From a virus (Duplodnaviria; Caudoviricetes), in IMG/VR virus record IMGVR_UViG_3300025276_000005, positions 1 to 57,552 of that record: a DNA stretch of 57,552 nt, one strand, 5' to 3'. Shown here in pieces: positions 29,844 through 56,085 of the stretch. A model generated the notes under the pieces. It made no database searches, was not told where the DNA came from, and was given only the letters and a program-made list of their open reading frames with translations. Positions within the stretch are counted from its first letter, which is position 1, and each line of letters begins with the position of its first letter. Both the position numbers and the translations under genes were made by a program.

Positions 29844-31451
29844 TTACTTTGTCTCGTAGCTACGTGCCATCGTTACAATCGCATTAGTGCTAAGAAGCGT
29901 GACAGCTACTGACACAGCATTTTGAAGTGCGTTCTTTGTAACCTTCATCGGGTCAATAACACCCATTGACATCAGCTTACCTCTCTTATCATTCTTTACG
30001 TCATAACCAAAACCTCTTGGCGTGTCATCGCTATACAAGTCATCATACATCAAGCCTGCGTTTGATAGTATAGTTTTAATCGGCGAGAGTAAAGACTCTC
30101 TAAGTATGTTATAAGCAGTCTTCTTCTCATCAGACCAACTTTCACTTATCGTCATAAACCTCGCTATGTTCTCAAGCGCCAATCCACCACCGGGTAGTAT
30201 ACCCTCAAGTGTAGCTGAACGTACCGCACATACAGCGTCATCAACCCTGTCAAACAACTCCTTGTGCTCTAGGTCAGTATTTCCACCAACGTATATAACA
30301 CCAACACCACCGGTAAGTGATGCTACCCTTGATAGGATAAACTCACGCTCAGTCTTTGTGCTTGAAGCAGCGTGCGCTCCGTGCAATTGCTCAACTCTCT
30401 CGTCTATATCCTCTTGAGAAACAACGTCATCGTCCTTTAATATAATCGTTGAAGCACGACCAACTATAACCTTGTTAGCTTTACCCAAGTCACTTGGCAT
30501 TATTAAGCTCAAGTCATCGCCCGTCTTCTCACTAAAGTAAGTAGCCCCAACCGATAAAGCAATGTCGTTCATTAGCTCGTGCTGCTTGTAACCAAAGTTA
30601 GGCGGCTGTATACAACATATCTTCAAGCCGTTCTTCATCACGTTTGCCGATAAGGTGTTAATCACGTTTGTCGAGCAAGGCGCAATAATCAATAGCTTAC
30701 CACCCTCTTGGATGATTGGCTTCAATACATTCTCAATCTGTAGTATGTTAGTTATCTCAGCGTCACTAACTAAAACACTAGCACCGTCAAAGATACACTC
30801 GTCCTTCTTGTGGTTGTTAATAAACAAGTTAGATGAGTATCCTCTGTCTACCTTAATACCCATTGTAGTCTCAAAGTGTGTGTCGGATGTTTGTGAACGC
30901 TCAACTGTAACGATACCATTAACGCCAACCTCTTTATACACGTTAGCTATTATGTTACCAATACTTGAGTCGTTGTTCGCTGATATAGTAGCTACACTTA
31001 CTAGAGTTTTATCTGTAACAGGTTTGCTCATCTTCTTAAGACTCTTAACAACCTCGTCAGTACCCTTTACAAGCTCTCTAAGGACCGCTGTCTTATTATG
31101 CTTATCAGTAATCATCTCGTCTCCATTTCGTACTAAGGCGTTAGATAACACGATAGCCGTTGTCGTACCATCACCGGCAGACAATGCAGTCTTCTCCGCT
31201 GCCTCTTTTACAATTCTGACTGCAAGATTCTCCACAGGGTCAAGCAAGCTAATAGATTTAGCCACCGTGACTCCATCCTTAGTAACCGTCATTCCCGATA
31301 AATGTTCTTCTGATTCGATAAGCACTGTATGACCTTGAGGACCAAGGGTGCTCTTTACTGCATTTGTAATCTTCTCTAGACCTTTGAATAATTTTACTCT
31401 ACCTTCTTGAGAGAAATGCAATTCTTTAGGAGTGTAACCTGATTGATTCAT
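29844..31451 (-). CDS. groEL: Chaperonin GroEL (phage type, no GGM tail)
   Basis: STLGPQG, VTKDGVTVAKSI, AGDGTTTA, ATISAN, EGILPGGG, GVIDPMKV. Confidence 0.95.
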   Translation of the reverse strand: MNQSGYTPKELHFSQEGRVKLFKGLEKITNAVKSTLGPQGHTVLIESEEHLSGMTVTKDGVTVAKSISLLDPVENLAVRIVKEAAEKTALSAGDGTTTAIVLSNALVRNGDEMITDKHNKTAVLRELVKGTDEVVKSLKKMSKPVTDKTLVSVATISANNDSSIGNIIANVYKEVGVNGIVTVERSQTSDTHFETTMGIKVDRGYSSNLFINNHKKDECIFDGASVLVSDAEITNILQIENVLKPIIQEGGKLLIIAPCSTNVINTLSANVMKNGLKICCIQPPNFGYKQHELMNDIALSVGATYFSEKTGDDLSLIMPSDLGKANKVIVGRASTIILKDDDVVSQEDIDERVEQLHGAHAASSTKTEREFILSRVASLTGGVGVIYVGGNTDLEHKELFDRVDDAVCAVRSATLEGILPGGGLALENIARFMTISESWSDEKKTAYNILRESLLSPIKTILSNAGLMYDDLYSDDTPRGFGYDVKNDKRGKLMSMGVIDPMKVTKNALQNAVSVAVTLLSTNAIVTMARSYETK

Positions 31452-32825: not shown

Positions 32826-32886
32826 TATCGTAATGCAGCCAAGGTGGTCACAAGCCCACAACCAAAAAGGGATGCAGAGTGAGATA
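32826..32886 (+). ncRNA. Twister self-cleaving ribozyme (type P1), copy 1; predicted cut U32831/A32832
   Basis: P1 TATC/GATA; U^AA; P2 TGCA/TGCA; GC; P4 GTGG/CCAC enclosing loop TCACAAGC; GAGT. Both pseudoknots (AC/GT, GC/GC) can form. Confidence 0.88.
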
Positions 32887-33771: not shown

Positions 33772-34458
33772 ATGAACAAATTCAACGAATTATTAGCAGC
33801 AAAAAGTGGTGTAAACATCAAGAAAGTTAATACCATTAAGGGACAGATTAACAAGCTAGAGTCTAACAAGTTTGACAAGCAGATTGAGTTATCAAGAATC
33901 TGCTGCTCAGCGGAACAATGGTTTAAGTTAGCAGAAACCAAGCAACATATGAAAGATGCAGAGATTGAGATGACGATGGACAAGTTTGGAAATGATACGT
34001 TTGGATTCAAAAGAAGCCAATGGTCATTGTATAGACAAGTGGGTAACTTACTTACTGAGAAAGAAGAATTACTTGCAACATTCATCGCTGATAGAGAAGA
34101 AAAGGTAGCTAACAATGAAACCCCAAACAAATCATTAAAGGCCTTAAAGGATTGGATGATTAATGATGGTGTAGAGGAAGCAGAAGCAGAAGCAGAAGCA
34201 GAAGCAGAAGAGGAAGCAGAAGCAGAAGCAGAAGCAGAAGAAAAGACTAACTACATTGTTAGTTTTGCTATCAAAGGAGAGCATTTTGAAGATGGCAAAG
34301 GAGTTAGTATTAGAATAGCTGAAAGCGGAATTGTAGAGGGAGACATTGAAAAGATACCAAGTGGATTGAGAAAAGAGTTAGCGAAGTTATCATCTCAGAT
34401 AGCTTTAAAGCAACCAAATGCGATTGTGGAAACCAAAGGTAAGAGTGAATCAAAATAA
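33772..34458 (+). CDS. Early protein with an acidic (EA)n linker
   Basis: 228 aa; GAAGCA tandem repeats. Confidence 0.7.
   Translation: MNKFNELLAAKSGVNIKKVNTIKGQINKLESNKFDKQIELSRICCSAEQWFKLAETKQHMKDAEIEMTMDKFGNDTFGFKRSQWSLYRQVGNLLTEKEELLATFIADREEKVANNETPNKSLKALKDWMINDGVEEAEAEAEAEAEEEAEAEAEAEEKTNYIVSFAIKGEHFEDGKGVSIRIAESGIVEGDIEKIPSGLRKELAKLSSQIALKQPNAIVETKGKSESK
34174..34242 (+). repeat. In-frame hexamer tandem repeat (GAAGCA)n in two blocks
   Basis: Encodes EEAEAEAEAEAEEEAEAEAEAEE. Confidence 0.9.
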
Positions 34459-34464
34459 TCTAAG

Positions 34465-34492
34465 ATGGATGTCCGCTTAAGCGGATGTCCAT
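34465..34492 (+). repeat. Conserved hairpin family TCCGYT(N2)ARCGGA; other copies at 32381, 34827, 35641, 36533, 37579, 38688, 41344 and 48220
   Basis: ATGGATGTCCGCTTAAGCGGATGTCCAT. All copies lie in gaps between convincing genes. Confidence 0.9.
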
Positions 34493-34544
34493 TCCGTATA
34501 CAAGTGAGTGCTTGTACTGATGAGACTAAAAGGTTGAAACGGGA
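34492..34544 (+). ncRNA. Hammerhead self-cleaving ribozyme (type III); predicted cut after GUA at 34498
   Basis: Stem III TTCCGT/ACGGGA; stem I TACAAG/CTTGTA; core CTGATGA (34517-34523); stem II GAC/GTT; GAAA (34536-34539). Confidence 0.85.
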
Positions 34545-34566
34545 AATTAACTTAATACTGAGTGAT

Positions 34567-34818
34567 ATGGAAATTAAAAGAATTGTAGTAGTAATGGATG
34601 TTATTACTGAGGAAAAAACCACATTATATAATGCGTTATCTCTAGAGGATAATTTAATATCTACTATCATAACTTTAACAGAAGATAGCAGGAAAATAAT
34701 GGAATTTGCGTATAGGAATAAGGTATCAATAGACGCAAAGATTGAGAGTATACAATCAAAAAATGGTAGTATTAAAGCATATAGTCAAGCATTCGACATG
34801 ATTGCTTACGAAGGATAA
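34567..34818 (+). CDS. Early hypothetical protein (start re-called at ATG 34567)
   Basis: The longer ORF-track version would run through the hairpin and the hammerhead. Confidence 0.6.
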   Translation: MEIKRIVVVMDVITEEKTTLYNALSLEDNLISTIITLTEDSRKIMEFAYRNKVSIDAKIESIQSKNGSIKAYSQAFDMIAYEG

Positions 34819-34870: not shown

Positions 34871-35041
34871 ATGATTACGACAAAACACAGAATTACATAC
34901 GCTAGATGCATTGACTCGGGGATGAGCAGTGCGTTACAGATAGCTACCATCTTTAAGATGGTGTATGACATCACAGATGGTAAAGCATTAAAGCTAACGA
35001 TGGCTTGTGCTGATTACTACAATGAAACACTAACTAAATAA
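34871..35041 (+). CDS. 56-aa early protein, absent from the ORF track
   Basis: MITTKHRITYARCIDSG...; A-rich leader after the hairpin. Confidence 0.5.
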   Translation: MITTKHRITYARCIDSGMSSALQIATIFKMVYDITDGKALKLTMACADYYNETLTK

Positions 35042-35205: not shown

Positions 35206-35583
35206 ATGAAAAAGCGAGTAATTAACTTAGTAATAGATGCGTGTTATCTCATAGACAAAAAACGTGGTGTATTAAAGAATTACGAATATGAGACTGCGCC
35301 ATATTGTGGTCATCATAGGAGTGGAACAGATGGGGTTCTGTATAGTTCTTCTTACGCAGAAGGCGATGGTGGAGAGTCTGCCCATATAATTGGCTTTAGG
35401 TTTACTAAAAGCACAGATGATGAGTATTGGTGGAGTTTTAGATACAAGGTAGTGCGAGAGGTGTTTAACGATGGGTTATTTATAGCAGAGTCAAAATACA
35501 CCACATTCTTAAATGAGTTAAAGGCAGTATTCTTTTACCACAAACACGGATTCAGCCTTAGGTACAGAATAAAAACAAAATAA
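35206..35583 (+). CDS. Early hypothetical protein
   Basis: 125-aa ORF. Confidence 0.6.
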   Translation: MKKRVINLVIDACYLIDKKRGVLKNYEYETAPYCGHHRSGTDGVLYSSSYAEGDGGESAHIIGFRFTKSTDDEYWWSFRYKVVREVFNDGLFIAESKYTTFLNELKAVFFYHKHGFSLRYRIKTK

Positions 35584-35616
35584 ATTAGGTTATGTCTAAT
35601 TTATAATGTATATTTG
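35582..35616 (+). promoter_or_regulatory. Operator/promoter unit 1
   Basis: AAATTAG-N7-CTAATTT, 6 nt, then TATATTTG. Confidence 0.75.
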
Positions 35617-35684
35617 ACTAATTAATAACTAATAACCTATTAGATGTCCGCTTAAGCGGATGTCTGATAATTAAAACCAAGAAG

Positions 35685-36457: not shown

Positions 36458-36470
36458 AATAAGTTAAAAT

Positions 36471-36505
36471 AAATTAGGTCATGTCTAATTCATAACTTAT
36501 ATTTG
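36471..36505 (+). promoter_or_regulatory. Operator/promoter unit 2
   Basis: AAATTAG-N7-CTAATTC, 6 nt, then TATATTTG. Confidence 0.75.
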
Positions 36506-36566
36506 CCTAATCAATAACTAATTAACTAACAATGTCCGTTCAAGCGGACTTATTAAAACCAAGATT

Positions 36567-37601: not shown

Positions 37602-37665
37602 TCTTTAATGTCACTAAGGTGGTCACAAGTCCATCAATCTAAGAGTTAGAGAGACAGAGTGGAGA
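37602..37665 (+). ncRNA. Twister self-cleaving ribozyme (type P1), copy 2; predicted cut U37606/A37607
   Basis: P1 TCTT/GAGA; U^AA; P2 TGTC/GACA; AC; P4 GGTGG/CCATC enclosing loop TCACAAGT; P5 TCTAA/TTAGA; GAGT. Compensatory changes relative to copy 1. Confidence 0.9.
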
Positions 37666-38305: not shown

Positions 38306-38524
38306 ATGCCTGCAGCAAGACAAGAGTATGTAAAAAGTAAATATCAAGGAGTATCAGGGGTTATGACTAAAGGCGTAGTTAAATGGCGTGTAAACATCGC
38401 AGGAGTAGGACGTGCTAATTTAGCTTCTGAAAGAGAATGTGCTATTGCAGTAGATAAAATTAAAATAAGTCAAGGTAAAGAACCCGTTAATATACTAAAG
38501 AGAGTTAAAATAATTAGTCTATGA
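38306..38524 (+). CDS. AP2-like DNA-binding protein
   Basis: SKYQGV...KWRVNI...SERECAIAVD resembles the AP2 domain pattern. Confidence 0.6.
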   Translation: MPAARQEYVKSKYQGVSGVMTKGVVKWRVNIAGVGRANLASERECAIAVDKIKISQGKEPVNILKRVKIISL

Positions 38525-38545
38525 CTAATTTATAACTTATATTTA
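38511..38545 (+). promoter_or_regulatory. Operator/promoter unit 3
   Basis: AATTAGTC-TAT-GACTAATT followed at the same spacing by TATATTTA (one mismatch to the -7 box). Confidence 0.6.
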
Positions 38546-38556
38546 CATAATTATTA

Positions 38557-38682
38557 GTGGTCAACTTGGTTTCTCCGATGTCTTGGGGACTGAAGGATTG
38601 TCTGCTTATGGTTAATAGTCGTGACCACGTGGGTGTTTTTAATGCTTCACCTATTCATAACGACAAAGACAGTCAAAGACAT
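38557..38682 (+). ncRNA. Unassigned structured RNA (long interrupted hairpin with a possible pseudoknot)
   Basis: Nested stems ATGTCTT/AAGACAT, GACTG/CAGTC, TTGTC/GACAA, TTATG/CATAA, GTGGGTG/CACCTAT, plus GTGGTCA/TGACCAC. Confidence 0.55.
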
Positions 38683-39640: not shown

Positions 39641-40047
39641 AATCAGTATTTGAAGAAGCCAAGCTAGACGAATACTCAGGAGTTTTAGATAGTAGGGGAG
39701 TTGAGGCTAGAATTGTACTTGCGATAAAGATTACACGAGACAGAGAAAGTGGTGATGTTGAGATACTTAACACCTCTAAAGGAGGGGATTACTACAAAGA
39801 AATATCTAAAGATGAGTACGAATTATTCATCAAAAAAGGTTGGAGATATGGAGTTTATGTCTTATATTTGTCTAATTGCCGACTAAAACTTAACTCAATT
39901 GAGATTAGAATTAACGAGCATATACAAGAGAGCATCAATACTACGTTAGAGATGTTGCAGACAAGGAGAAAAGTAATACTAAACAATTACGCAAAAGTTA
40001 AAAATAAATTAAATCAAATCAACAATGAACAAGAACACTTACAGTAA
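39628..40047 (+). CDS. Hypothetical protein
   Basis: 139-aa ORF overlapping its neighbours. Confidence 0.6.
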   Translation: MRGLESVFEEAKLDEYSGVLDSRGVEARIVLAIKITRDRESGDVEILNTSKGGDYYKEISKDEYELFIKKGWRYGVYVLYLSNCRLKLNSIEIRINEHIQESINTTLEMLQTRRKVILNNYAKVKNKLNQINNEQEHLQ

Positions 40048-48219: not shown

Positions 48220-48251
48220 GAGAGTCCGTGTGAACGGACTCTCTTTTTTTT
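48220..48251 (+). terminator. Terminator between the two converging arms
   Basis: GAGAGTCCGT-GTGA-ACGGACTCTC followed by T8. Confidence 0.85.
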
Positions 48252-51200
48252 ATCTACCACTAAATTTTCCTTTGTTTCTTATACCTCTCTTAGTAGACTT
48301 ACTTTTTTTCTTCTTCTTCTTGTAATTATATAGAGCGTCCTTTTCAGCTTGCTTAGCTTTTCGTTCTATAGCCTTAGCTTTTTTCTCAGCAACTCTATCT
48401 AAGTATCCTTCAGATTCAGGACCGAATGTCTTACGCCATAGTGCTTTGTCATAACGCTTCATATCAGTCTCACTATTATACTGACCTAGCTTATCTTTCT
48501 TTATCTGAGTTTCTGATGTACCTTTAGGTCTATAAGATGAGCTTACACCAAGTACATCATACATATTTTCCTCACTAAAATCTCCTTGGAAAGCATTCGC
48601 AAGTCCAATAAACGGGTCGAACTGAACACCTAAACCAATCTCGGTTAGAGTTCTTACAGCACTACCTATTGCTTTAGATTCACCATTTTCCTTATCTTCC
48701 TTTGATAGCTTAGCTAGTTTAGTAAACTTTCGAGACACAGAACTAAACGGATTTACTACGCTATCTATTGGTCTACTACTGTTACCTCTCATCTTATTGA
48801 CTGCTTCCTCAGCAGATGCACCGAAGTAAGGAATCTGATATATAAGATTAAGACCCATCATTGCATCTTTCATCTTATCTAAAGCCTCCTCTCTATCCTC
48901 ATCCTCGCCCTTAATAAACTTAGCTATGTTAGCCGCAAGTGCGAACATAACATTTGCGACTCCAAGGTTTAATACAAGACCTCTAACACTTTTAGCTGAG
49001 GGTTTCTCGCCCTGACTTACCGACCTAAGTATGTTAGTGGTAGACTGCATCACCTTGTTCATCTGTAAAAAAACAGTACTACCGAACATAGTAAAACCAC
49101 GAACTAAGGAGTTGCTATCCATTTGTAGAGGTATCTTATCTGTACTTCTTCTTGATTGCTGAGTAGTGTTATAGTCCTCAAACTTTGCAACAGCATCAGC
49201 TTCACTCATACCATTAGCAATATCTCTATTGAAGTTAATCATATACCCCATAACACCAAGTACATCACCAAGAACAGTTGGGCTACCTGCAGCAGCTTTT
49301 AACATCCTAAAGGCTTTACTTTTCTGAGATTGAGACGCAGGTTTATATGTTACTGAGCCTGTCTCAAGACCATACACATCACCCTCTAGTCCTTTAAGTA
49401 GACGCTCTTGAAACATAGGTGATAAATTCCAAGCCTTTTTTATTTGTGAAGGCATAGTCGCTATAACTTTAGCTCCATCAACCATAAACATTAATAAGTC
49501 AAGCCCCGGTACTTTTGACTTACCCTTACCTCTGTACGAGTAATCTTCAAAAGCATTTACAAAAGAAGTGGACTGCTTAAGAATCTGAACAGCCTTGAAT
49601 GCTAGAGCAAAACCTGTGTACTTAGTCATTAACTTATCAACAAGGTTTGACTGAATAGCAGCCTTACCACCGTTAGGATTAACAGCGTAGTTGATTGCAT
49701 TCTTTACAGCCTTACCAAGACCTGTCTCAGTCAATAAGGTATTAACAGATTTGAACTTAAATATAGCATTCATCTTCTTAACCCCCTTAGCGTAACCCTT
49801 ATACCTCTCGATAGTTTCAAAGTGGTCTTGAAGAGTAGAGGTAAAATCTGAACCTCTAAGGTCTACATCACCCGTTAAATCAACCCTTTCTTTTAAGGCA
49901 GGAGCAGTCTGTGCATTAAACACACCACTAAAATCACCGTTCTCTAATAGGTCAGCGTTAACTTTAGTCTGAATAGTTTGAGTTGGAAAGTAATTATCAA
50001 CATACCCTAGGTTTACGTTGTTGACATCAGAATAAACCTCATTAGTATTCTCGAAGTACTCGGTACTTAAATACTCTACTGTCTTATCTACAAACTCAAC
50101 AACCTCTTTACCTAAGATAGATTCAATCTCTTTCAGCTTTGAATCAGTAAGACCCTGAGCGAGTAGCTTATCACGTTGAACCTTATTCTTACTAAGAGCG
50201 TAGAGTCTCATAAGTTGGTCTGCATTGAAAGAATCGCTAGATAACACACCGCCCTTAGAAGTTTTTAATCCTGTAATCTTATGAACTCCTGTGGCAAGTT
50301 TTTTCTTAATGTCCTTGTAGCTATCTATACCGTCAATGGTTTTAGCTATCTCATCCATCTTAGTACGAGTATTCTGAAGACCTTTAGTATATACACTCTC
50401 CATCTTATTAAGAGCGTTGTACACGTTTTCTGTAAAGAAAGAACCAACCTTATCAAGACCATTAGTAAGAGTACCTAGGTGCTTTAAGTTATTACCTATA
50501 GCTTGAAGCATTTTACCTACGTTGGTGTAGCTAAACTCCTTAGCGTATTTATTTATAGCCTCACCTAACCCCTTACCAAATAACTCAATACGTCTATCAT
50601 CTCTGTCAGAGTCTAGTTGATTTTTATCCTTAGGTTTACCGTCTTCAAAAAGCTCTGAGTAACCATCCTCAATGTCCTTATCAGCTTGATTCTTAGTCTC
50701 TTTAACCTCAGCTCTGAACGCATCAAGTTTTTTCTTAAGCTCCATACGACCACCTTCTTGACCTCGTTTAATATCTTCAAGTAGTTGTTCAACCTGCTCA
50801 AGACTCATATCTCTGAGCCCATCTACAGACTCGAATATCTCTGAGGCATATAGCTGAGACTTTTCTTTGTTGGTTAACTCTGAAAATTCTTTTTGCAGTA
50901 TGGTATCAATATCAGGGAATAAGGATTTCTTTATATCATCAGCATCAATCTTTACAGGCTTACCATCTATCGTTGCAAGGACTTTATTAAGTACAGCCTC
51001 CATAACCTCAAAGAACTGCTGACTATCAGCATCTACAGATTTAGTTTTCTTTGCAGACTTAGATACTCTTTTACGAATTTCAGATATTAAAGTCTTCTTA
51101 TATTTATCTTCAGACTTATTGTATACGTTAGCCATATAATCCATAAAGCTATCTATAGACACCTCGTTTAGAACATCTACCTTCGCAAACCTATTTAATA

Positions 51201-54200
51201 TCCTCTGTGCCTGACCGTTTGTTATAGAGCCTTTCTTAACTAGAGCCTTAACATTCTCAGTTATTAACTTACTAGACTCTTGTATAGCTTGCTGTGCAGT
51301 CTTAGCACCTTCTTGCAAATCTTTTAATCTCTTAGCGTATAGCTTCTTATCTGTAGTTGTTATCTCCTTACCGAAGTTGCTGTCAAGAGTTGCTTTAGAT
51401 GGTGAGGACTTTTCTTTTAGAGAAAGTTTCTTACGAACACCACGAACTAATTCCTCACGAACAACGTCTGAAGCTCTTTCATATAAAGGTGTAGACTTTA
51501 AATACTCTATAGCATTTTTAAGCAGAATTTCCTGACTAACCTTTGGTGTAATATTCTTAGGACCTTTGTTGTTGTTTTTCTTATTAGCTCTATCTTGAGT
51601 TCTCTTTATAATATCATCAATAGCGTTCTCAACCTTCTTAGAACCCGGTACTAAATCCTCGGTAACCTTAGCTTTAGGTGCTGATTTTTTATTGGTAGCT
51701 AAAACCTCTGATATTAAGTTTGATTCTACACCTTTTTGTTTAAGTAGCTCACCTATAACCACCTCAGAGTATCCAAGACCACGTAGTTTTTCTACAGCAG
51801 ACTTTACCGCTTTTTTATTAGAAGAGTCTCCTAACTCAAACCTAGCCTTGGATGCTTGAGCCTCAGCCTTTGCATCGAATTTGGTTTTAGATTTAGCATC
51901 TAAAGGTTTACCACTAAACAAGTCAGCAAGACCTGTGTTAATAAATTCATCAAGCGTTAGATTCTCTATGTCCTTTATATTGCCTTTAAACAATTCATCA
52001 GACGTAGTAAAGTTTTGTTTTATGTATTTAAAGGTAGCATTCATCCACTCCTTAAACTTAGACTTCTGAGCAGCATTAGTGATAGTCTCACCTTTAGTAG
52101 CCATAAGTTCTACTAAGGCTTCTTCTCTAGCTAACTTCGTATCACCATACTTTTCAATCGCAGCTTTTAAGGCATCAGTACCTTCAACTAATTTTAAACC
52201 ACGAGCCAAAAGAGCTGTACCTTTTTTACCTGAAGCATCTGAACGTAAGAAATCAGTCCATATATGACCGAACTCGTGTATTGGTGTAGCTAAAGAATCA
52301 AATGCAGGGTTTATAAATATCTTACCATCCTTAGTTAGACCAAGGATAGTTTTACCATTAGATTCTTGAGTTCTAACACCGGGTTGGTCTAGTATAGCAT
52401 CAAACTCAACCTGACTTGTTGCTACATTAACTGATGGGAATGCAAACTTTAATTTACCTATAAGTATGTCAAGGTTTGATTGCTTCGTTTTAGCAGGGTC
52501 AGATTGAAAAACCTTATCGTTAAAGAAAGCCCCACCAACTTGCTGTGCTGTGGCTTCTTTAGTAGGGAACTCACCTTTTTTATTTCTCTTAAAAACTCTA
52601 CTAGCCTTAGCTTTCCAAGTTGAGAATACGTCAATACCGTGTTTTGGTTTAGAGATTAAAGCTATCGCTTTACCTTTAGGTCCGAATCCATAGTTATCGT
52701 GAGAAACTTTTGTAACACCGCCTTTATCTGTAACGTCAATACCAACAACAGCAACTATATCTCCGTGTGCTCCCTTAATCATTGAAGGTTCTCCTATTGC
52801 TTTGTATATATTATCAGCAAAGAAAGCGTCTACATTAAACTTAGGGTTTCCTTCAGCTAAAGATTTTATTACAGCCCTATTATTTTTTTTAGCTCCCGGA
52901 GGATATATGATTGATTCAAACAATAACTTCCTATCATCAAGAGTTAAGGTATTCATATCACCCTTAGCTCTTTGGTTTGCTTGTTTAACAACTAAATCAG
53001 CTAACTGCCCTAGGGTTTTAATCTTATTCTTCTTAATAAATTCTTGTAGCTTAATAGCTGCAGCCACTTTCTTCTTCCCTACTGTAGATTTTTGAGAAGA
53101 AGTCTTAGCTTTATCTAAACTAACTTGTAAATCAGCTAAAGCCTTTACTTGATTCTTTTTTGGGGCAGACTTTATTGCCGGGCTTACATATCTGAATATA
53201 GCTTCATTAGAATTAATAGCACTATCAGACATTCTAGCTATAGCCATAGGTACGTGACCTTGAGGTAATTTTCCGTCATCCCATAGCTTATCAAACAACA
53301 CTTTGTTTTCTTCATATAATCTTACAGCGTTGTCAAATTGAGTTTTAGCACCATCTTCATTTACACCTGCCCAAGCGGCTTCTGTATTCTTACCTAGTAT
53401 ATTAAACATTATGCCCCCGTCAACATCCATATTGTTTCCTTGAGCATCTTTAACTGTACCGGAAGCGAGGATGTCTGACATACCTGTTAACATTGGTATA
53501 CCATCAAAGAAGTCAAGAGGCTTAAGCAAATCGTTCTCACTCTTAACACCTATAAAGTCTAGAGCTTTTTGAGTAATCTTTTTAATCGAGTTACTTTCTT
53601 TTATTGGGTTAACTTCATAATCCCTAGAAGCTCCTGATGCTTTAAACTCAATCTCATTCTTATCCATCTTATTCATCTCCTCAGTAATAGCAGATGTTTC
53701 TTGGTCTTGAGTTTCTAATCCATCTAATCTAAACCTAGGAGTAGATTCCTCTGCAACAACCTCTTCCGTTGGAGTGATTGCATCAAGCTCAGACAAGTCT
53801 ATTCTCTCGTCTGCTTCAATCGCATCTACCTCAGCTTGGACTTCCGGGCTGACATCAGATTCTTGAACTTCTTGTGTAGTCTCTGTGGTAAGTTCGCTGA
53901 CTTCGGAGTCTCCCTCTCCCACTGTTTGGCTATCTCCGGCTTGTTCTTGTACATCCACCGTCTCTGTGCTTGGCTCTTGAATGGCATCGGCTTGTTCTTT
54001 TAAAATTTGTTGTTGTTTTTCTGATATCTGCTCAGGTGTTGGGTTTATAACACCCTCCTCTGCTAATTTTTTAGCAGCAAACTCTTCAGTCACTACATTA
54101 GTTGTAGTACTAACATCGTCACCATCAACTGTAATGTCAGTCTCTCTAGCCTCACCTTCTGTGATAGGATTCTCTTGGAGATTCTTTATCTCCTCTTTAA

Positions 54201-56085
54201 TTACCTTAGCTCTATCTTTTGCAGGCTGAGTCTCGTTTGACTTTAAGTTATCCAACTCTACCTGTAGCTTTGTTATCGCATCAAGTGTTGGCTTGTTCAT
54301 GTCAGGACTAACTTTCTTTATATCTTCACTAACTATAGCTTCCTTATACTTCTCATCGTATATAGACTGAAGCTCATTGTCATTTACAATATTGACCTCA
54401 GCTTTAATTAAATCCTGAGGTGAAGCCTCTCTAATAAATTTAGCCATATCAGGACCTGTAACTCTAGCATCCTTACCCGTACCATTGATGGAGTATTTTG
54501 GTGCTTTATATAAACCATAACCCACCGTTAGTGGTGCTGTTGCTGTACCTGCGATACCTTCAAAACCAATCTCAGCAATATCCATCTCCTGACCTGCAAC
54601 CAATCGTCCACCAACCTCACCAAGCGAACCACCAACAGCTTCAACTGCACCACCTGCCGCACCTGCTAAAAGTTTACGACCTGTCATTCCTGCTACCTTA
54701 CCAACAACTTTAGTTGCTATCCCACCTGAGATAGCGTCAATAGCTCCAATAGTAAGACCACGTCCAACAGCCTTAAAACGGATGTTGTTCATCTTCTCTT
54801 GATTCCCTAAAATTTCTCTAATATTTTCTTCAGTCATCTCCTTCCCGCCAAGTTCCTCTTGTAGTAACTCAGCGTATGTAAGACCCGTCTCAAGTGTAGT
54901 ACCTGCCATTCCCATCGCACCAATAAGAGCACCTGCAGGACCTGCGATTGCTGCACCTGCCGCAGCACCACCTGCTGCACCTGCCAAGGTAGCCGGTGTA
55001 GCCATAGCACTTACTGAGGATACAAATAATTGTGGTATAACTGTAGGGTTTGCGATAACACCCTTAATGAATCCTAACCAACCTCCACCATCAGCTTGGT
55101 ATATCTTCTGAAAGTCACGCATCTCATCTGACTCACCCATAGACTGCATACGTTTCTGTGCTGCAATGAAGTCATCAATATCTTCTTGAGAAGCGTCTGA
55201 GCCTTTAGCAAACAACTCAAGTGCTTCATCTACTGAACCACCCTGTGCTTGACCTGCTGCACCCGCTCTATATAAGTCACCAAATAAATCTGTGATTTCA
55301 TTCTTACCAAATACTCTCTCAATCAAAGTGTCTTTCTCTCCCGCAACATCCTCTGTTCCTTTTGAGAAGTCAATAACTTCAGGAGTAAAGTCTGTTGGAA
55401 CAGACTCTTCGATAACACTTAAGGCTTCTTCTTTTGTTATACCGGTATCGTCAGGGTTAATACCTGTAGCTTCCATATAATCAGACTTCCAACGAGTAGG
55501 ATGGTCTTTTGATTTCAAATCTACTCCACCCTCGCCTTTACTTCCCCAATGATACATACCATCAACTTCATTAGTTTGAGGTATAATGCCTGCCTTCCAA
55601 GCACCACGATAGTCGTAGTTTGAATTGTCAATTTGAGGTTCCTCACTATAGGCTTGCTTAAACTCTTCTCTCCAAGCTACAACATTTGGGTCTGTAGCCA
55701 TCCAATTTTGAAACTCAATCTCTTCCTGCTCTGTTAGTGTAAAGTCCGTTGGAACAGACTCTTCAGTAACTTCAGGAGTAAAGTCTATTGCAACAGGCTC
55801 CTCAACTTCTTGAGTAGAAGACTCCAATAATACAGGTTCCTCCTGCTCTGTTGGTGTAATGGATTCCGTAACGTCCTCTTGAATAGTGGAAACGGATTCG
55901 TCTTTTTTTTTTAATGTAAAGTTTTCTAGAGAACCAATATCATACCCCTCTTCATTAAAGAAAGAATATAACTCCTCTCTCTTTACGTCATCAGTTAATG
56001 CAGATATAAAATTATTTAAGTCACCTAAATCGTAACCCTCTTGATTGAAAAAATCAAATAACTCTTGAGCTTTAATCTCGTCCAT
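48250..56085 (-). CDS. Giant (2611 aa) probable virion-injected multidomain protein with a zincin-like HExxH motif
   Basis: Acidic N-terminus, Gly/Ala-rich membrane-like segment, GKIFINP...TPIHEFGHIW...EEAL, long helical C-terminus; last gene of the virion arm. Confidence 0.7.
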   Translation of the reverse strand: MDEIKAQELFDFFNQEGYDLGDLNNFISALTDDVKREELYSFFNEEGYDIGSLENFTLKKKDESVSTIQEDVTESITPTEQEEPVLLESSTQEVEEPVAIDFTPEVTEESVPTDFTLTEQEEIEFQNWMATDPNVVAWREEFKQAYSEEPQIDNSNYDYRGAWKAGIIPQTNEVDGMYHWGSKGEGGVDLKSKDHPTRWKSDYMEATGINPDDTGITKEEALSVIEESVPTDFTPEVIDFSKGTEDVAGEKDTLIERVFGKNEITDLFGDLYRAGAAGQAQGGSVDEALELFAKGSDASQEDIDDFIAAQKRMQSMGESDEMRDFQKIYQADGGGWLGFIKGVIANPTVIPQLFVSSVSAMATPATLAGAAGGAAAGAAIAGPAGALIGAMGMAGTTLETGLTYAELLQEELGGKEMTEENIREILGNQEKMNNIRFKAVGRGLTIGAIDAISGGIATKVVGKVAGMTGRKLLAGAAGGAVEAVGGSLGEVGGRLVAGQEMDIAEIGFEGIAGTATAPLTVGYGLYKAPKYSINGTGKDARVTGPDMAKFIREASPQDLIKAEVNIVNDNELQSIYDEKYKEAIVSEDIKKVSPDMNKPTLDAITKLQVELDNLKSNETQPAKDRAKVIKEEIKNLQENPITEGEARETDITVDGDDVSTTTNVVTEEFAAKKLAEEGVINPTPEQISEKQQQILKEQADAIQEPSTETVDVQEQAGDSQTVGEGDSEVSELTTETTQEVQESDVSPEVQAEVDAIEADERIDLSELDAITPTEEVVAEESTPRFRLDGLETQDQETSAITEEMNKMDKNEIEFKASGASRDYEVNPIKESNSIKKITQKALDFIGVKSENDLLKPLDFFDGIPMLTGMSDILASGTVKDAQGNNMDVDGGIMFNILGKNTEAAWAGVNEDGAKTQFDNAVRLYEENKVLFDKLWDDGKLPQGHVPMAIARMSDSAINSNEAIFRYVSPAIKSAPKKNQVKALADLQVSLDKAKTSSQKSTVGKKKVAAAIKLQEFIKKNKIKTLGQLADLVVKQANQRAKGDMNTLTLDDRKLLFESIIYPPGAKKNNRAVIKSLAEGNPKFNVDAFFADNIYKAIGEPSMIKGAHGDIVAVVGIDVTDKGGVTKVSHDNYGFGPKGKAIALISKPKHGIDVFSTWKAKASRVFKRNKKGEFPTKEATAQQVGGAFFNDKVFQSDPAKTKQSNLDILIGKLKFAFPSVNVATSQVEFDAILDQPGVRTQESNGKTILGLTKDGKIFINPAFDSLATPIHEFGHIWTDFLRSDASGKKGTALLARGLKLVEGTDALKAAIEKYGDTKLAREEALVELMATKGETITNAAQKSKFKEWMNATFKYIKQNFTTSDELFKGNIKDIENLTLDEFINTGLADLFSGKPLDAKSKTKFDAKAEAQASKARFELGDSSNKKAVKSAVEKLRGLGYSEVVIGELLKQKGVESNLISEVLATNKKSAPKAKVTEDLVPGSKKVENAIDDIIKRTQDRANKKNNNKGPKNITPKVSQEILLKNAIEYLKSTPLYERASDVVREELVRGVRKKLSLKEKSSPSKATLDSNFGKEITTTDKKLYAKRLKDLQEGAKTAQQAIQESSKLITENVKALVKKGSITNGQAQRILNRFAKVDVLNEVSIDSFMDYMANVYNKSEDKYKKTLISEIRKRVSKSAKKTKSVDADSQQFFEVMEAVLNKVLATIDGKPVKIDADDIKKSLFPDIDTILQKEFSELTNKEKSQLYASEIFESVDGLRDMSLEQVEQLLEDIKRGQEGGRMELKKKLDAFRAEVKETKNQADKDIEDGYSELFEDGKPKDKNQLDSDRDDRRIELFGKGLGEAINKYAKEFSYTNVGKMLQAIGNNLKHLGTLTNGLDKVGSFFTENVYNALNKMESVYTKGLQNTRTKMDEIAKTIDGIDSYKDIKKKLATGVHKITGLKTSKGGVLSSDSFNADQLMRLYALSKNKVQRDKLLAQGLTDSKLKEIESILGKEVVEFVDKTVEYLSTEYFENTNEVYSDVNNVNLGYVDNYFPTQTIQTKVNADLLENGDFSGVFNAQTAPALKERVDLTGDVDLRGSDFTSTLQDHFETIERYKGYAKGVKKMNAIFKFKSVNTLLTETGLGKAVKNAINYAVNPNGGKAAIQSNLVDKLMTKYTGFALAFKAVQILKQSTSFVNAFEDYSYRGKGKSKVPGLDLLMFMVDGAKVIATMPSQIKKAWNLSPMFQERLLKGLEGDVYGLETGSVTYKPASQSQKSKAFRMLKAAAGSPTVLGDVLGVMGYMINFNRDIANGMSEADAVAKFEDYNTTQQSRRSTDKIPLQMDSNSLVRGFTMFGSTVFLQMNKVMQSTTNILRSVSQGEKPSAKSVRGLVLNLGVANVMFALAANIAKFIKGEDEDREEALDKMKDAMMGLNLIYQIPYFGASAEEAVNKMRGNSSRPIDSVVNPFSSVSRKFTKLAKLSKEDKENGESKAIGSAVRTLTEIGLGVQFDPFIGLANAFQGDFSEENMYDVLGVSSSYRPKGTSETQIKKDKLGQYNSETDMKRYDKALWRKTFGPESEGYLDRVAEKKAKAIERKAKQAEKDALYNYKKKKKKSKSTKRGIRNKGKFSGR

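What the first reader, a model, noticed from the sequence alone, without database searches (positions are those of the whole stretch)
34492..34544. Type III hammerhead hidden under a mis-extended ORF
TTCC-GTA^TACAAG-TGAGTG-CTTGTA-CTGATGA-GAC-TAAAAG-GTT-GAAA-CGGGA gives a complete catalytic core with three stems and a GUA cleavage triplet. Stem II begins with G-U rather than the usual G-C, which may lower activity. The ORF track runs 34465..34818 across it, so automated annotation would mask it.
Basis: partly seen in the sequence, partly recalled or inferred. Interest (0 to 1): 0.8.

Follow-up and report, generated by a model that had tools for sequence, protein, structure and literature searches.

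The report
Hammerhead ribozyme in phage early operon
A small self-cutting RNA (a type III hammerhead ribozyme) sits between two early genes of a marine phage, belongs to a large conserved family in related phages that standard annotation misses, and most likely cuts the long early transcript into separate messages.

Summary
Window 34492-34544 (+) has every hammerhead core nucleotide, three stems, a GUA cleavage triplet (cut predicted between 34498 and 34499) and a G10.1-U11.1 wobble.

Rfam alone does not support it: 0 hits at gathering, and RF00008 scores 13.4-23.0 bits against a cut-off of 48.5. Relatives settle it. A covariance model built from 37 hammerheads of related phage contigs, without the window copy, scores it 62.2 bits (E 4.4e-17); the next-best hit in the genome scores 9.6 bits. 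The model finds 53 copies in 25 of 81 related loci, all on the gene strand, with covarying stems.

Four orthologous loci carry the same ribozyme before the same gene. The layout recurs: a stable hairpin abuts the ribozyme, and a start codon follows about 23 nt later.

The 117-aa ORF from 34465 is over-extended. Its ATG lies inside the repeated hairpin, and 10 of 11 homologue clusters start at the position of 34567.

Hammerheads flanking phage genes have been known since 2011, so this is a new member of a known kind. Cleavage itself is untested. A cultured Flavobacterium phage carries an unannotated homologue and could serve as a test system.

The parts
34465..34492 (+). 12-bp hairpin with loop UUAA and two G-U pairs that form only in + strand RNA. 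It is one of 7 copies of a repeated intergenic hairpin. Its last base is shared with the first pair of hammerhead stem III. It contains the ATG that opens the spurious 117-aa ORF.
   Evidence: It folds in context. An abutting hairpin is present in 52 of 60 hammerhead contexts in the family, against 80 of 1000 control positions.
34492..34544 (+). Type III hammerhead ribozyme, whole motif.
   Evidence: RF00008 23.0 bits, full length; family model R1 62.2 bits, E 4.4e-17.
34492..34497 (+). Stem III 5' strand (UUCCGU), pairing with 34539-34544 (ACGGGA). U34497 is U16.1.
   Evidence: Helix 1 has 5 of 6 pairs with changes on both sides across the family.
34498..34499 (+). Predicted cleavage site, between A17 (34498) and U1.1 (34499), with a GUA triplet.
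   Evidence: Inferred from the hammerhead consensus and the alignment to RF00008 and R1. Not tested.
34499..34516 (+). Stem I (7 bp) with loop GAGU. The loop region GUGAGUGC is conserved across the family.
   Evidence: Helix 2 has 6 of 7 pairs with changes on both sides and 99.6% of cells paired.
34517..34523 (+). Core CUGAUGA (C3-A9).
   Evidence: These columns are invariant in A1 except N7.
34524..34535 (+). Stem II (G-U, A-U, C-G, U-G) with loop AAAA. G34524-U34535 is the 10.1-11.1 pair.
   Evidence: pair 34-46: GC in 37 rows, GU in 1, the window. Orthologues have U-U here.
34536..34539 (+). Core GAAA (G12 A13 A14 A15.1).
   Evidence: Invariant in A1.
34567..34818 (+). Probable true coding sequence, 83 aa, of unknown function. 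Its ATG lies 23 nt after the ribozyme.
   Evidence: 10 of 11 other clusters start here. The family-wide median ATG offset is 23 nt. No PHROG match.
34564..34570 (+). Start-codon region (AUAUGGA) that can pair with 34493-34499 (UCCGUAU), competing with stem III.
   Evidence: This is specific to the window and its four close orthologues and is not a family-wide feature.

Best explanation
Window 34492-34544 (+) encodes a genuine type III hammerhead ribozyme. It belongs to a large homologous family found in the early operons of marine and freshwater podophages that probably infect Flavobacteriia.

It is transcribed as part of a polycistronic early mRNA, between the 228-aa gene (33772-34458) and the 83-aa gene (34567-34818). 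The RNA folds into the three-way junction and cuts itself between A34498 and U34499.

The upstream product then ends in the stable 12-bp hairpin plus 6 nt (UCCGUA) and a 2',3'-cyclic phosphate. The downstream product begins with a 5'-hydroxyl that is base-paired in stem I, and it carries the start codon about 70 nt in. The likely purpose is to split the long early transcript into separate messages whose ends are protected from exonucleases.

Shown here: the motif, its homology, stem covariation, strand specificity, the recurrent hairpin-ribozyme-ATG layout, and the true gene start.

Inferred: cleavage itself, the activity of this G10.1-U11.1 copy, and the stabilising role of the ends.
For: - Core and fold. 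All core nucleotides and the three stems are present. RF00008 aligns full length (1-54 of 54) at 23.0 bits on the 65-nt stretch.
- Family model. R1, built from 37 relatives' copies without the window, gives 62.2 bits and E 4.4e-17 at exactly 34492-34544 +. The next-best site scores 9.6 bits.
- Spread. R1 finds 53 copies in 25 of 81 related loci, 53 of 53 on the gene strand.
- Descriptor control. My descriptor found 38 type III, 18 type I and 1 type II hits in those loci, none on the minus strand. Five shuffled rounds of the same 1.42 Mb gave 0, 1, 1, 0 and 0 hits.
- Covariation. 95.0% of cells are paired against 71.9% in shuffles. Fourteen of 17 pairs change on both sides. The covariation score is 0.694 against 0.224, with 0 of 500 shuffles as high; slid controls give 34.9-42.9% paired.
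- Orthologous copies. Four lie before the same gene (L083-L086, 55.8-59.9 bits).
- Differences from close copies. Read by eye, the differences between the window copy and the closest non-orthologous copies (L003, L005, L008) keep the motif: H17 is C or A, the 1.1-2.1 pair changes C-G to U-A, and two stem II changes give wobble pairs.
- Layout. An abutting hairpin occurs in 52 of 60 contexts (control 80 of 1000). An ORF-opening ATG lies 13-30 nt downstream in 48 of 60 (control 112 of 1000), with a median of 23 nt, which is the window's value.
- Context. Two twister-P1-like elements lie in the same operon (36.3 and 28.3 bits).
- Literature (passages read). Multiple hammerheads flank genes in prophages and imply processing of long phage transcripts. 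The U10.1-U11.1 mismatch is natural and supports more activity than other mispairs (PMC3088659).
Against: - No cleavage data exist, and no RNA run holding the sequence was listed.
- Rfam does not reach its curated threshold: 0 hits at gathering, no hammerhead at E<=10 in a 251-nt scan, and 13.4 bits with E 0.25 in the whole-genome search, where 7 of 14 control genomes also give sub-threshold hits.
- The isolated fold is not more stable than shuffles (z -0.96).
- With flanks, the predicted MFE is not the active fold. In 126 nt the alternative fold scores -35.7 kcal/mol, against -31.1 with the hammerhead stems enforced. Even a transcript ending at 34558 does not form stem III in its MFE. Nearest-neighbour models ignore hammerhead tertiary contacts.
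- G10.1-U11.1 is unique to the window among 61 strong family copies (43 G-C, 17 U-U, 1 G-U). Stem II has two wobbles in 4 bp.
- The covariation set was selected by a descriptor that demands pairing.
- The reading frame from 34465 stays open across the ribozyme in all four orthologues.
- The nearest named relative, MW202828.1, has no copy.
Confidence: 0.75

Rival explanations
1. A homologous but catalytically weakened or dead copy. The sequence descends from the phage hammerhead family, but the G10.1-U11.1 wobble, a stem II with two wobbles in four pairs, and a competing helix with the start-codon region leave it with little or no self-cleavage.
For: It is the only G-U at 10.1-11.1 among 61 strong copies. 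The alternative fold is favoured by 4.6 kcal/mol in context. RF00008 scores it 23.0 bits, against 36.7 bits for a canonical relative. The G10.1-C11.1 pair is described as highly conserved in canonical hammerheads (PMC4209133, passage read).
Against: All 11 strictly conserved core nucleotides are intact. The differences I read by eye from the closest copies preserve the structure. Four orthologues keep the element at 55.8-59.9 bits. Seventeen family copies carry U-U at the same position with an otherwise intact core, and that mismatch is reported as active (PMC3088659). The window keeps G at 10.1.
Confidence: 0.17
2. The stretch is protein-coding. Translation starts at 34465, the 117-aa protein is real, and the hammerhead resemblance is incidental to, or merely overlaps, the coding sequence.
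For: The ORF is open from 34465. Gene callers predicted 117-aa proteins twice (P0001 and P0002). The frame has no stop across the ribozyme in four orthologues.
Against: The ATG is part of a repeated hairpin and is buried in a 12-bp stem. Ten of 11 other homologue clusters start at the internal Met. L086 keeps the ribozyme without that ATG. In L083, 4 of the 5 nucleotide differences in the extension change the amino acid, with no third-position excess, whereas in the true coding sequence 14 of 22 differences are at third positions. The same ribozyme family precedes unrelated genes in 60 contexts.
Confidence: 0.02
3. A structured RNA element that works without self-cleavage, for example as a protein or RNase recognition site or a translational operator that uses the hammerhead-like fold.
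For: Hairpins of the same family occur alone at 5 other sites in the window, so punctuation does not always need a ribozyme. The start codon can be sequestered by the stem III 5' strand.
Against: The invariant columns across the family are exactly the catalytic core. Nothing but catalysis is known to require this (established hammerhead knowledge). Type I and type III permutations of the same core occupy the same slots.
Confidence: 0.05
4. A chance look-alike in AT-rich DNA.
For: The Rfam score is sub-threshold, and control genomes also give sub-threshold hits. The fold energy is unremarkable.
Against: R1 gives E 4.4e-17. Orthologous copies exist. There was 1 descriptor hit in 200 window shuffles.
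Confidence: 0.01

Closest known systems
Type III hammerhead ribozyme (Rfam RF00008, clan CL00010)
   Same: Same topology, with stem III open and stems I and II capped. Full consensus core: CUGAUGA, GAAA, A15.1-U16.1 and the H17 cleavage site. It aligns full length to the model.
   Different: It scores 23.0 bits against the 48.5-bit gathering cut-off; canonical relatives reach only 36.7 bits. Against the model consensus, loop II is 4 nt shorter (4-position deletion) and loop I is 5 nt longer (5-nt insertion). The window has G10.1-U11.1 instead of G-C.
Multiple hammerheads flanking genes in prophages and phage intergenic regions (Perreault et al. 2011, PMC3088659; passages read)
   Same: Ribozymes lie between genes of polycistronic phage transcripts and close to start codons; the halovirus HF1/HF2 example is 13 nt upstream of an early gene. 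Natural U10.1-U11.1 variants occur. Twister and hammerhead share genomic neighbourhoods (PMC6765202, passage read).
   Different: Here there is a fixed module: an abutting 10-13-bp hairpin, the type III ribozyme, about 23 nt, then the ATG. It alternates with type I hammerheads whose stem III is that same hairpin. The module is found in a specific family of about 57-65-kb podophage genomes. I could not check whether members are already in that paper's supplementary lists, because supplements are closed.
RNase III processing sites of the phage T7 early transcript (recalled, not from a call)
   Same: They cut a long early transcript between cistrons and leave a hairpin at the 3' end of the upstream message.
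   Different: T7 uses a host protein enzyme on a double-stranded site. Here the RNA would cut itself and leave 2',3'-cyclic-phosphate and 5'-OH ends.

Membership tests
Hammerhead ribozyme, type III | Conserved core nucleotides C3 U4 G5 A6 N7 G8 A9, G12 A13 A14, the A15.1-U16.1 pair, and H17 (not G) at the cleavage site. | tested here: met
   Sequence read: CUGAUGA at 34517-23, GAAA at 34536-39, U34497, A34498. Aligned to RF00008 and R1.
Hammerhead ribozyme, type III | Three helices around the core, with stems I and II closed by loops and stem III open. | tested here: met
   MFE of the isolated motif. Family covariation: 14 of 17 pairs change on both sides and 95% of cells are paired. Caveat: the rows were pre-selected for pairing. 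Fifteen further copies found by the model alone fit the same structure.
Hammerhead ribozyme, type III | G10.1-C11.1 pair at the base of stem II. | tested here: not met
   The window has G34524-U34535. Among 61 strong family copies, 43 are G-C, 17 are U-U and 1 is G-U. This feature is highly conserved but not absolute: a U-U mismatch is reported as natural and active (PMC3088659).
Hammerhead ribozyme, type III | Rfam RF00008 curated gathering score (48.5 bits). | tested here: not met
   0 hits at gathering; 13.4 bits; 23.0 bits. The whole phage clade is below the threshold: 0 hits in 7 loci, and the top-scoring R1 match among relatives (L045) reaches 36.7 bits.
Hammerhead ribozyme, type III | Tertiary contact between loops I and II, needed for fast cleavage at physiological Mg2+. 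| tested here: inconclusive
   Loop I (GUGAGUGC-like, with U14 invariant) and loop II (NAAA, with one A invariant) are more conserved than the stems, which suggests a contact. No structure or assay is available.
Hammerhead ribozyme, type III | Site-specific self-cleavage giving 2',3'-cyclic-phosphate and 5'-OH ends. | not testable with these tools
   No RNA run holding the sequence was listed.
Phage early-operon hammerhead family defined here (model R1) | Significant match to a covariance model built without the window copy, on the gene strand, in an intergenic slot before a start codon. | tested here: met
   62.2 bits, E 4.4e-17. The ATG lies 23 nt downstream, equal to the family median. The abutting hairpin is present.

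The most novel reading that the evidence does not exclude
In the window and its four close orthologues, the 5' strand of stem III doubles as an anti-start-codon sequence. UCCGUAU (34493-34499) pairs with AUAUGGA (34564-70) in the uncut RNA and buries the AUG. Predicted unpaired probability of the AUG is 0.01-0.03 uncut and 0.90-0.98 after the cut.

On this reading, self-cleavage would license translation of the downstream gene as well as separating messages. The unusual 10.1-11.1 pair (U-U in the orthologues, G-U here) would set the rate of that switch.

More broadly, hairpin-ribozyme cassettes would be interchangeable mRNA-end modules. Type III, type I with the hairpin as stem III, and twister variants are swapped in front of the same genes across a large family of phages that probably infect Flavobacteriia.
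Probability: 0.12. Interest if true: 0.7.

Novelty: new member of a known kind. Interest (0 to 1): 0.42.

Why it matters
The biological role of self-cleaving ribozymes in bacteria and phages is still described as largely elusive (PMC6765202, passage read).

This phage family offers an unusually regular natural experiment. Dozens of copies sit in one fixed layout: hairpin, ribozyme, about 23 nt, start codon. Type I, type III and twister modules are exchanged before the same genes, bare hairpins occur where relatives have ribozymes, and natural G-C, U-U and G-U variants occur at the most conserved stem pair.

A cultured relative, Flavobacterium phage vB_FspP_elemoE_10-3D, carries an unannotated homologue (44.4 bits), so the processing hypothesis can be tested in infected cells.

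There are also two practical points. Rfam's curated threshold misses the whole clade, and gene callers extend an ORF over the ribozyme.

Tried and rejected
- Rfam as sole arbiter. There was nothing at gathering and nothing for hammerhead at E<=10 in 251 nt. I kept this as evidence against, but homology to the family outweighs it.
- Close relatives through the flanking proteins or the hairpin in viral contigs. None were found. Megablast against phages found no match.
- The nearest named genome, MW202828.1. It has 13 hairpins of a different sequence but no hammerhead.
- RNA evidence. No RNA holder was listed.
- The idea that pairing between the stem III 5' strand and the start codon is a family-wide rule. 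Rejected: mean longest pairing was 4.24 against 4.02 in permutations (4 of 500 as high), and the effect is driven by the five closely related orthologous copies.
- Codon-position analysis of the ORF extension. There are too few substitutions to decide.
- Twister core regex across all loci. Besides the two window sites, it matched only L084 and L085 in a twister-like context; L040, L050 and L106 (minus strand) matched in unrelated contexts. The twister family was not modelled.
- first used wrong stem I and II partners in a constraint. That energy (-11.1) is void. One search repeats it correctly. The accessibility figures did not use the constraint.
- Literature searches listed no paper describing this hairpin-hammerhead module in Flavobacteriia phages. 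Supplementary lists of PMC3088659 could not be seen and may include members.

Full report
**What is there**

The window is a complete 57,552-bp virus record with direct terminal repeats. GC skew and the ORF map show a + strand block from about 32 to 48 kb. PHROG matches identify portal, terminase, a GroEL-like chaperonin, a primase-helicase and recombination genes. The primase is 71.4% identical to an uncultured podovirus, MW202828.1. Its N-terminal third is 41.5% identical to Flavobacterium phages of the genus Elemovirus. The host is therefore probably a member of the Flavobacteriia. This is an inference.

- Stem III is UUCCGU with ACGGGA.
- A34498 is the cleavage nucleotide.
- Stem I has 7 bp with loop GAGU.
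- The core is CUGAUGA.
- Stem II is G-U, A-U, C-G, U-G with loop AAAA.
- GAAA follows.

The isolated 61 nt fold into exactly this junction as the minimum-free-energy structure. The energy is unremarkable: -11.3 kcal/mol, z -0.96, with 31 of 200 shuffles at least as good.

**Rfam**

Rfam finds no family at gathering score anywhere in the window. It finds no hammerhead at E<=10 in a 251-nt scan. The whole-genome search for RF00008 gives 13.4 bits (E 0.25), and 7 of 14 control genomes also give sub-threshold hits. On the 65-nt stretch alone it gives a full-length alignment of 23.0 bits against a cut-off of 48.5. Taken alone, these results would leave the finding undecided.

**Relatives decide it**

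The primase retrieved at least 598 related stretches in IMG/VR. I examined the best 80, each with up to 10 kb upstream, together with MW202828.1.

A simple descriptor (core plus three stems) found 38 type III, 18 type I and 1 type II hammerheads in these 81 loci. All were on the gene strand and none on the other strand. Five dinucleotide-shuffled rounds of the same 1.42 Mb gave 0, 1, 1, 0 and 0 hits. Two hundred shuffles of the window gave 1 hit in total.

The 38 distinct type III sequences, window included, align without difficulty, and the named structure gives these counts:
- 95.0% of cells are paired, against 71.9% in shuffles.
- 14 of 17 pairs have changes on both sides.
- The covariation score is 0.694 against 0.224, with 0 of 500 shuffles as high.
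- Slid controls give 34.9-42.9% paired.

These rows were chosen by a descriptor that requires pairing, so the percentage paired is inflated. The diversity of pair types is not.

To remove circularity for the window, I built covariance model R1 from the 37 relatives only. With filters off over the whole window, R1 scores 34492-34544 (+) at 62.2 bits, E 4.4e-17, full length. The next-best site scores 9.6 bits.

Over the 81 loci R1 finds 53 copies in 25 loci, 53 of 53 on the gene strand. Fifteen of them were not in the training set.

**The same gene, the same ribozyme**

The 117-aa ORF has 11 other homologue clusters. Ten are 82-86 aa and begin at or within four residues of the equivalent of Met35, that is 34567. 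Only the closest cluster (83% identity) has the extension.

In L083-L086 the orthologous gene is preceded by the same hammerhead (55.8-59.9 bits), and the ATG lies 23 nt after it. L086 has a different hairpin that lacks the ATG while the ribozyme is retained.

More distant orthologues of the gene are flanked by type I hammerheads on both sides (L124-L127), or have one immediately upstream (L120, read by eye). Most have none. Counting descriptor and R1 hits together, at least 9 of 46 loci have one directly upstream.

The ribozyme is therefore a movable punctuation module and not a part of this gene. The gene start at 34567 is well supported.

**The 10.1-11.1 pair**

Among 61 strong copies (53, 7 at 50 bits or more, plus the window), 43 have G-C and 17 have U-U. 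All 17 U-U copies have a GUA triplet. Only the window has G-U. All four orthologues are U-U.

Perreault et al. [quoted passage not shown] The window copy keeps the canonical G at 10.1 opposite the lineage's U11.1. This does not show that it is active, but it weakens the case that it is dead.

**Architecture and likely mechanism**

In 52 of 60 distinct contexts a stable hairpin ends within 3 nt of the ribozyme's first base. The criterion was at most -10 kcal/mol within 42 nt; 80 of 1000 control positions met it. In 48 of 60 contexts an ATG opening an ORF of at least 40 codons lies 13-30 nt after the ribozyme (control 112 of 1000). The median is 23 nt, which is the window's value.

The window has 7 copies of this hairpin. 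In the 34465 copy, two of the 12 stem pairs are G-U, which form only in + strand RNA.

In relatives' type I hammerheads the same kind of hairpin is stem III. In both permutations the cut therefore falls a few nucleotides 3' of the hairpin. The gene at 34871-35041 is 91% identical to one in L003 that is preceded by a type I hammerhead. In the window it is preceded by the bare hairpin.

From this I infer that cleavage separates adjacent cistrons. The upstream message would be left with a 3'-terminal hairpin and a cyclic phosphate. The downstream message would have a 5'-hydroxyl that is base-paired in stem I. Both kinds of end are expected to resist end-dependent RNases (established general knowledge, not tested here).

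This matches the suggestion in print that hammerheads flanking prophage genes process long phage transcripts (PMC3088659; PMC6765202).

**Results against, or unresolved**

With flanks, the predicted MFE is not the active fold. In 126 nt the stem III 5' strand pairs with the start-codon region (-35.7 kcal/mol), against -31.1 with the hammerhead stems enforced. The same holds for L086. A transcript ending at 34558 also lacks stem III in its MFE. Such models ignore tertiary contacts.

This alternative helix buries the AUG: predicted unpaired probability is 0.01-0.03, rising to 0.90-0.98 after the cut. It is confined to the five closely related copies and is not a family rule.

No RNA run holding the sequence was listed. 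The frame from 34465 stays open in all four orthologues.

**Comparison and novelty**

The element works like, and is, a type III hammerhead. It fails two membership rows, the G10.1-C11.1 pair and the Rfam gathering score. Neither row is absolute, and the whole clade falls below the Rfam threshold.

Hammerheads in phage intergenic regions, natural U-U variants and co-occurrence with twister are already in print, so this is a new member of a known kind.

What may be new is the fixed hairpin-ribozyme-ATG module, its exchange among ribozyme types, and the size of the phage family that carries it. My four literature searches listed no description of it. Supplementary lists that I could not open may contain members.

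A cultured Elemovirus has an unannotated homologue 15 nt before its first early gene (44.4 bits), which makes experiments feasible.

Noticed in passing
window 32827-32885 and 37602-37665 (+): Two twister-P1-like elements scoring 36.3 bits (E 7.1e-07) and 28.3 bits (E 0.00015), both below the 67.2-bit gathering score and both lacking the optional P3 stem. Their P1 and P2 stems differ by compensatory changes. The second directly abuts a hairpin copy, as the hammerhead does. Copies near-identical to the first element (same 12-nt core and flanks) are in L084 and L085.
   Followed up: partly
window 32377, 34466, 34829, 35641, 36529, 37577, 38687 (+): A family of 7 intergenic hairpins of the type TCCG-YTNA-CGGA. 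The 34465-34492 copy has G-U pairs that form only in + strand RNA. The relative MW202828.1 has 13 copies with a different stem but the same TTAA loop (L002). Five window copies stand alone without a ribozyme.
   Followed up: partly
L003:2130-2193, L008:1183-1250 and 16 more in L003-L082; 22 in L083-L130: Type I hammerheads (GGTTAACTGAYGAG...GTCTTAACC) whose stem III is the conserved hairpin, with the ATG 13-19 nt downstream in most cases. All are on the gene strand. The TAA inside the 5' strand of stem I can overlap the stop codon of the upstream gene, as read by eye in L003.
   Followed up: partly
L131:2147-2201 (Flavobacterium phage vB_FspP_elemoE_10-3D, MT497078.1): A type III hammerhead homologue (R1 44.4 bits, E 1.4e-11) lies 15 nt before the first + strand early gene. 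No feature is annotated there in the record. It is the only match in the whole 59,743-bp record.
   Followed up: yes
window 34493-34499 with 34564-34570: An alternative 7-bp helix (8 bp if U34492-A34571 is counted) between the stem III 5' strand and the start-codon region. It is favoured by 4.6 kcal/mol over the hammerhead fold in a 126-nt context and is predicted to bury the AUG until cleavage. It is shared with the four close orthologues only.
   Followed up: partly
window 35577-35639, 36466-36528, 38506-38568, 39831-39893: Four copies of a 63-nt AT-rich cassette with an inverted repeat and a TATATTTG-like box. The first two are followed within a few nucleotides by a hairpin copy. They look promoter-like, but I did not test this.
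   Followed up: no
window 34161-34252: A 12-nt tandem repeat (GAAGCAGAAGCA-like) encodes an acidic E/A run inside the 228-aa gene just upstream of the ribozyme. That gene has weak homologues (24-31% identity) in 13 of the 81 related loci.
   Followed up: no
window 48250-56085 (-) and 29844-31451 (-): A 2611-aa ORF matching only an unknown-function PHROG (phrog_32588) over residues 248-675, and a phage-encoded GroEL-like chaperonin (phrog_5725).
   Followed up: no
L052:3466-3518: A family copy (71.6 bits) with CCGAUGA instead of CUGAUGA, that is a C at core position 4. It may be an inactive or variant ribozyme.
   Followed up: no
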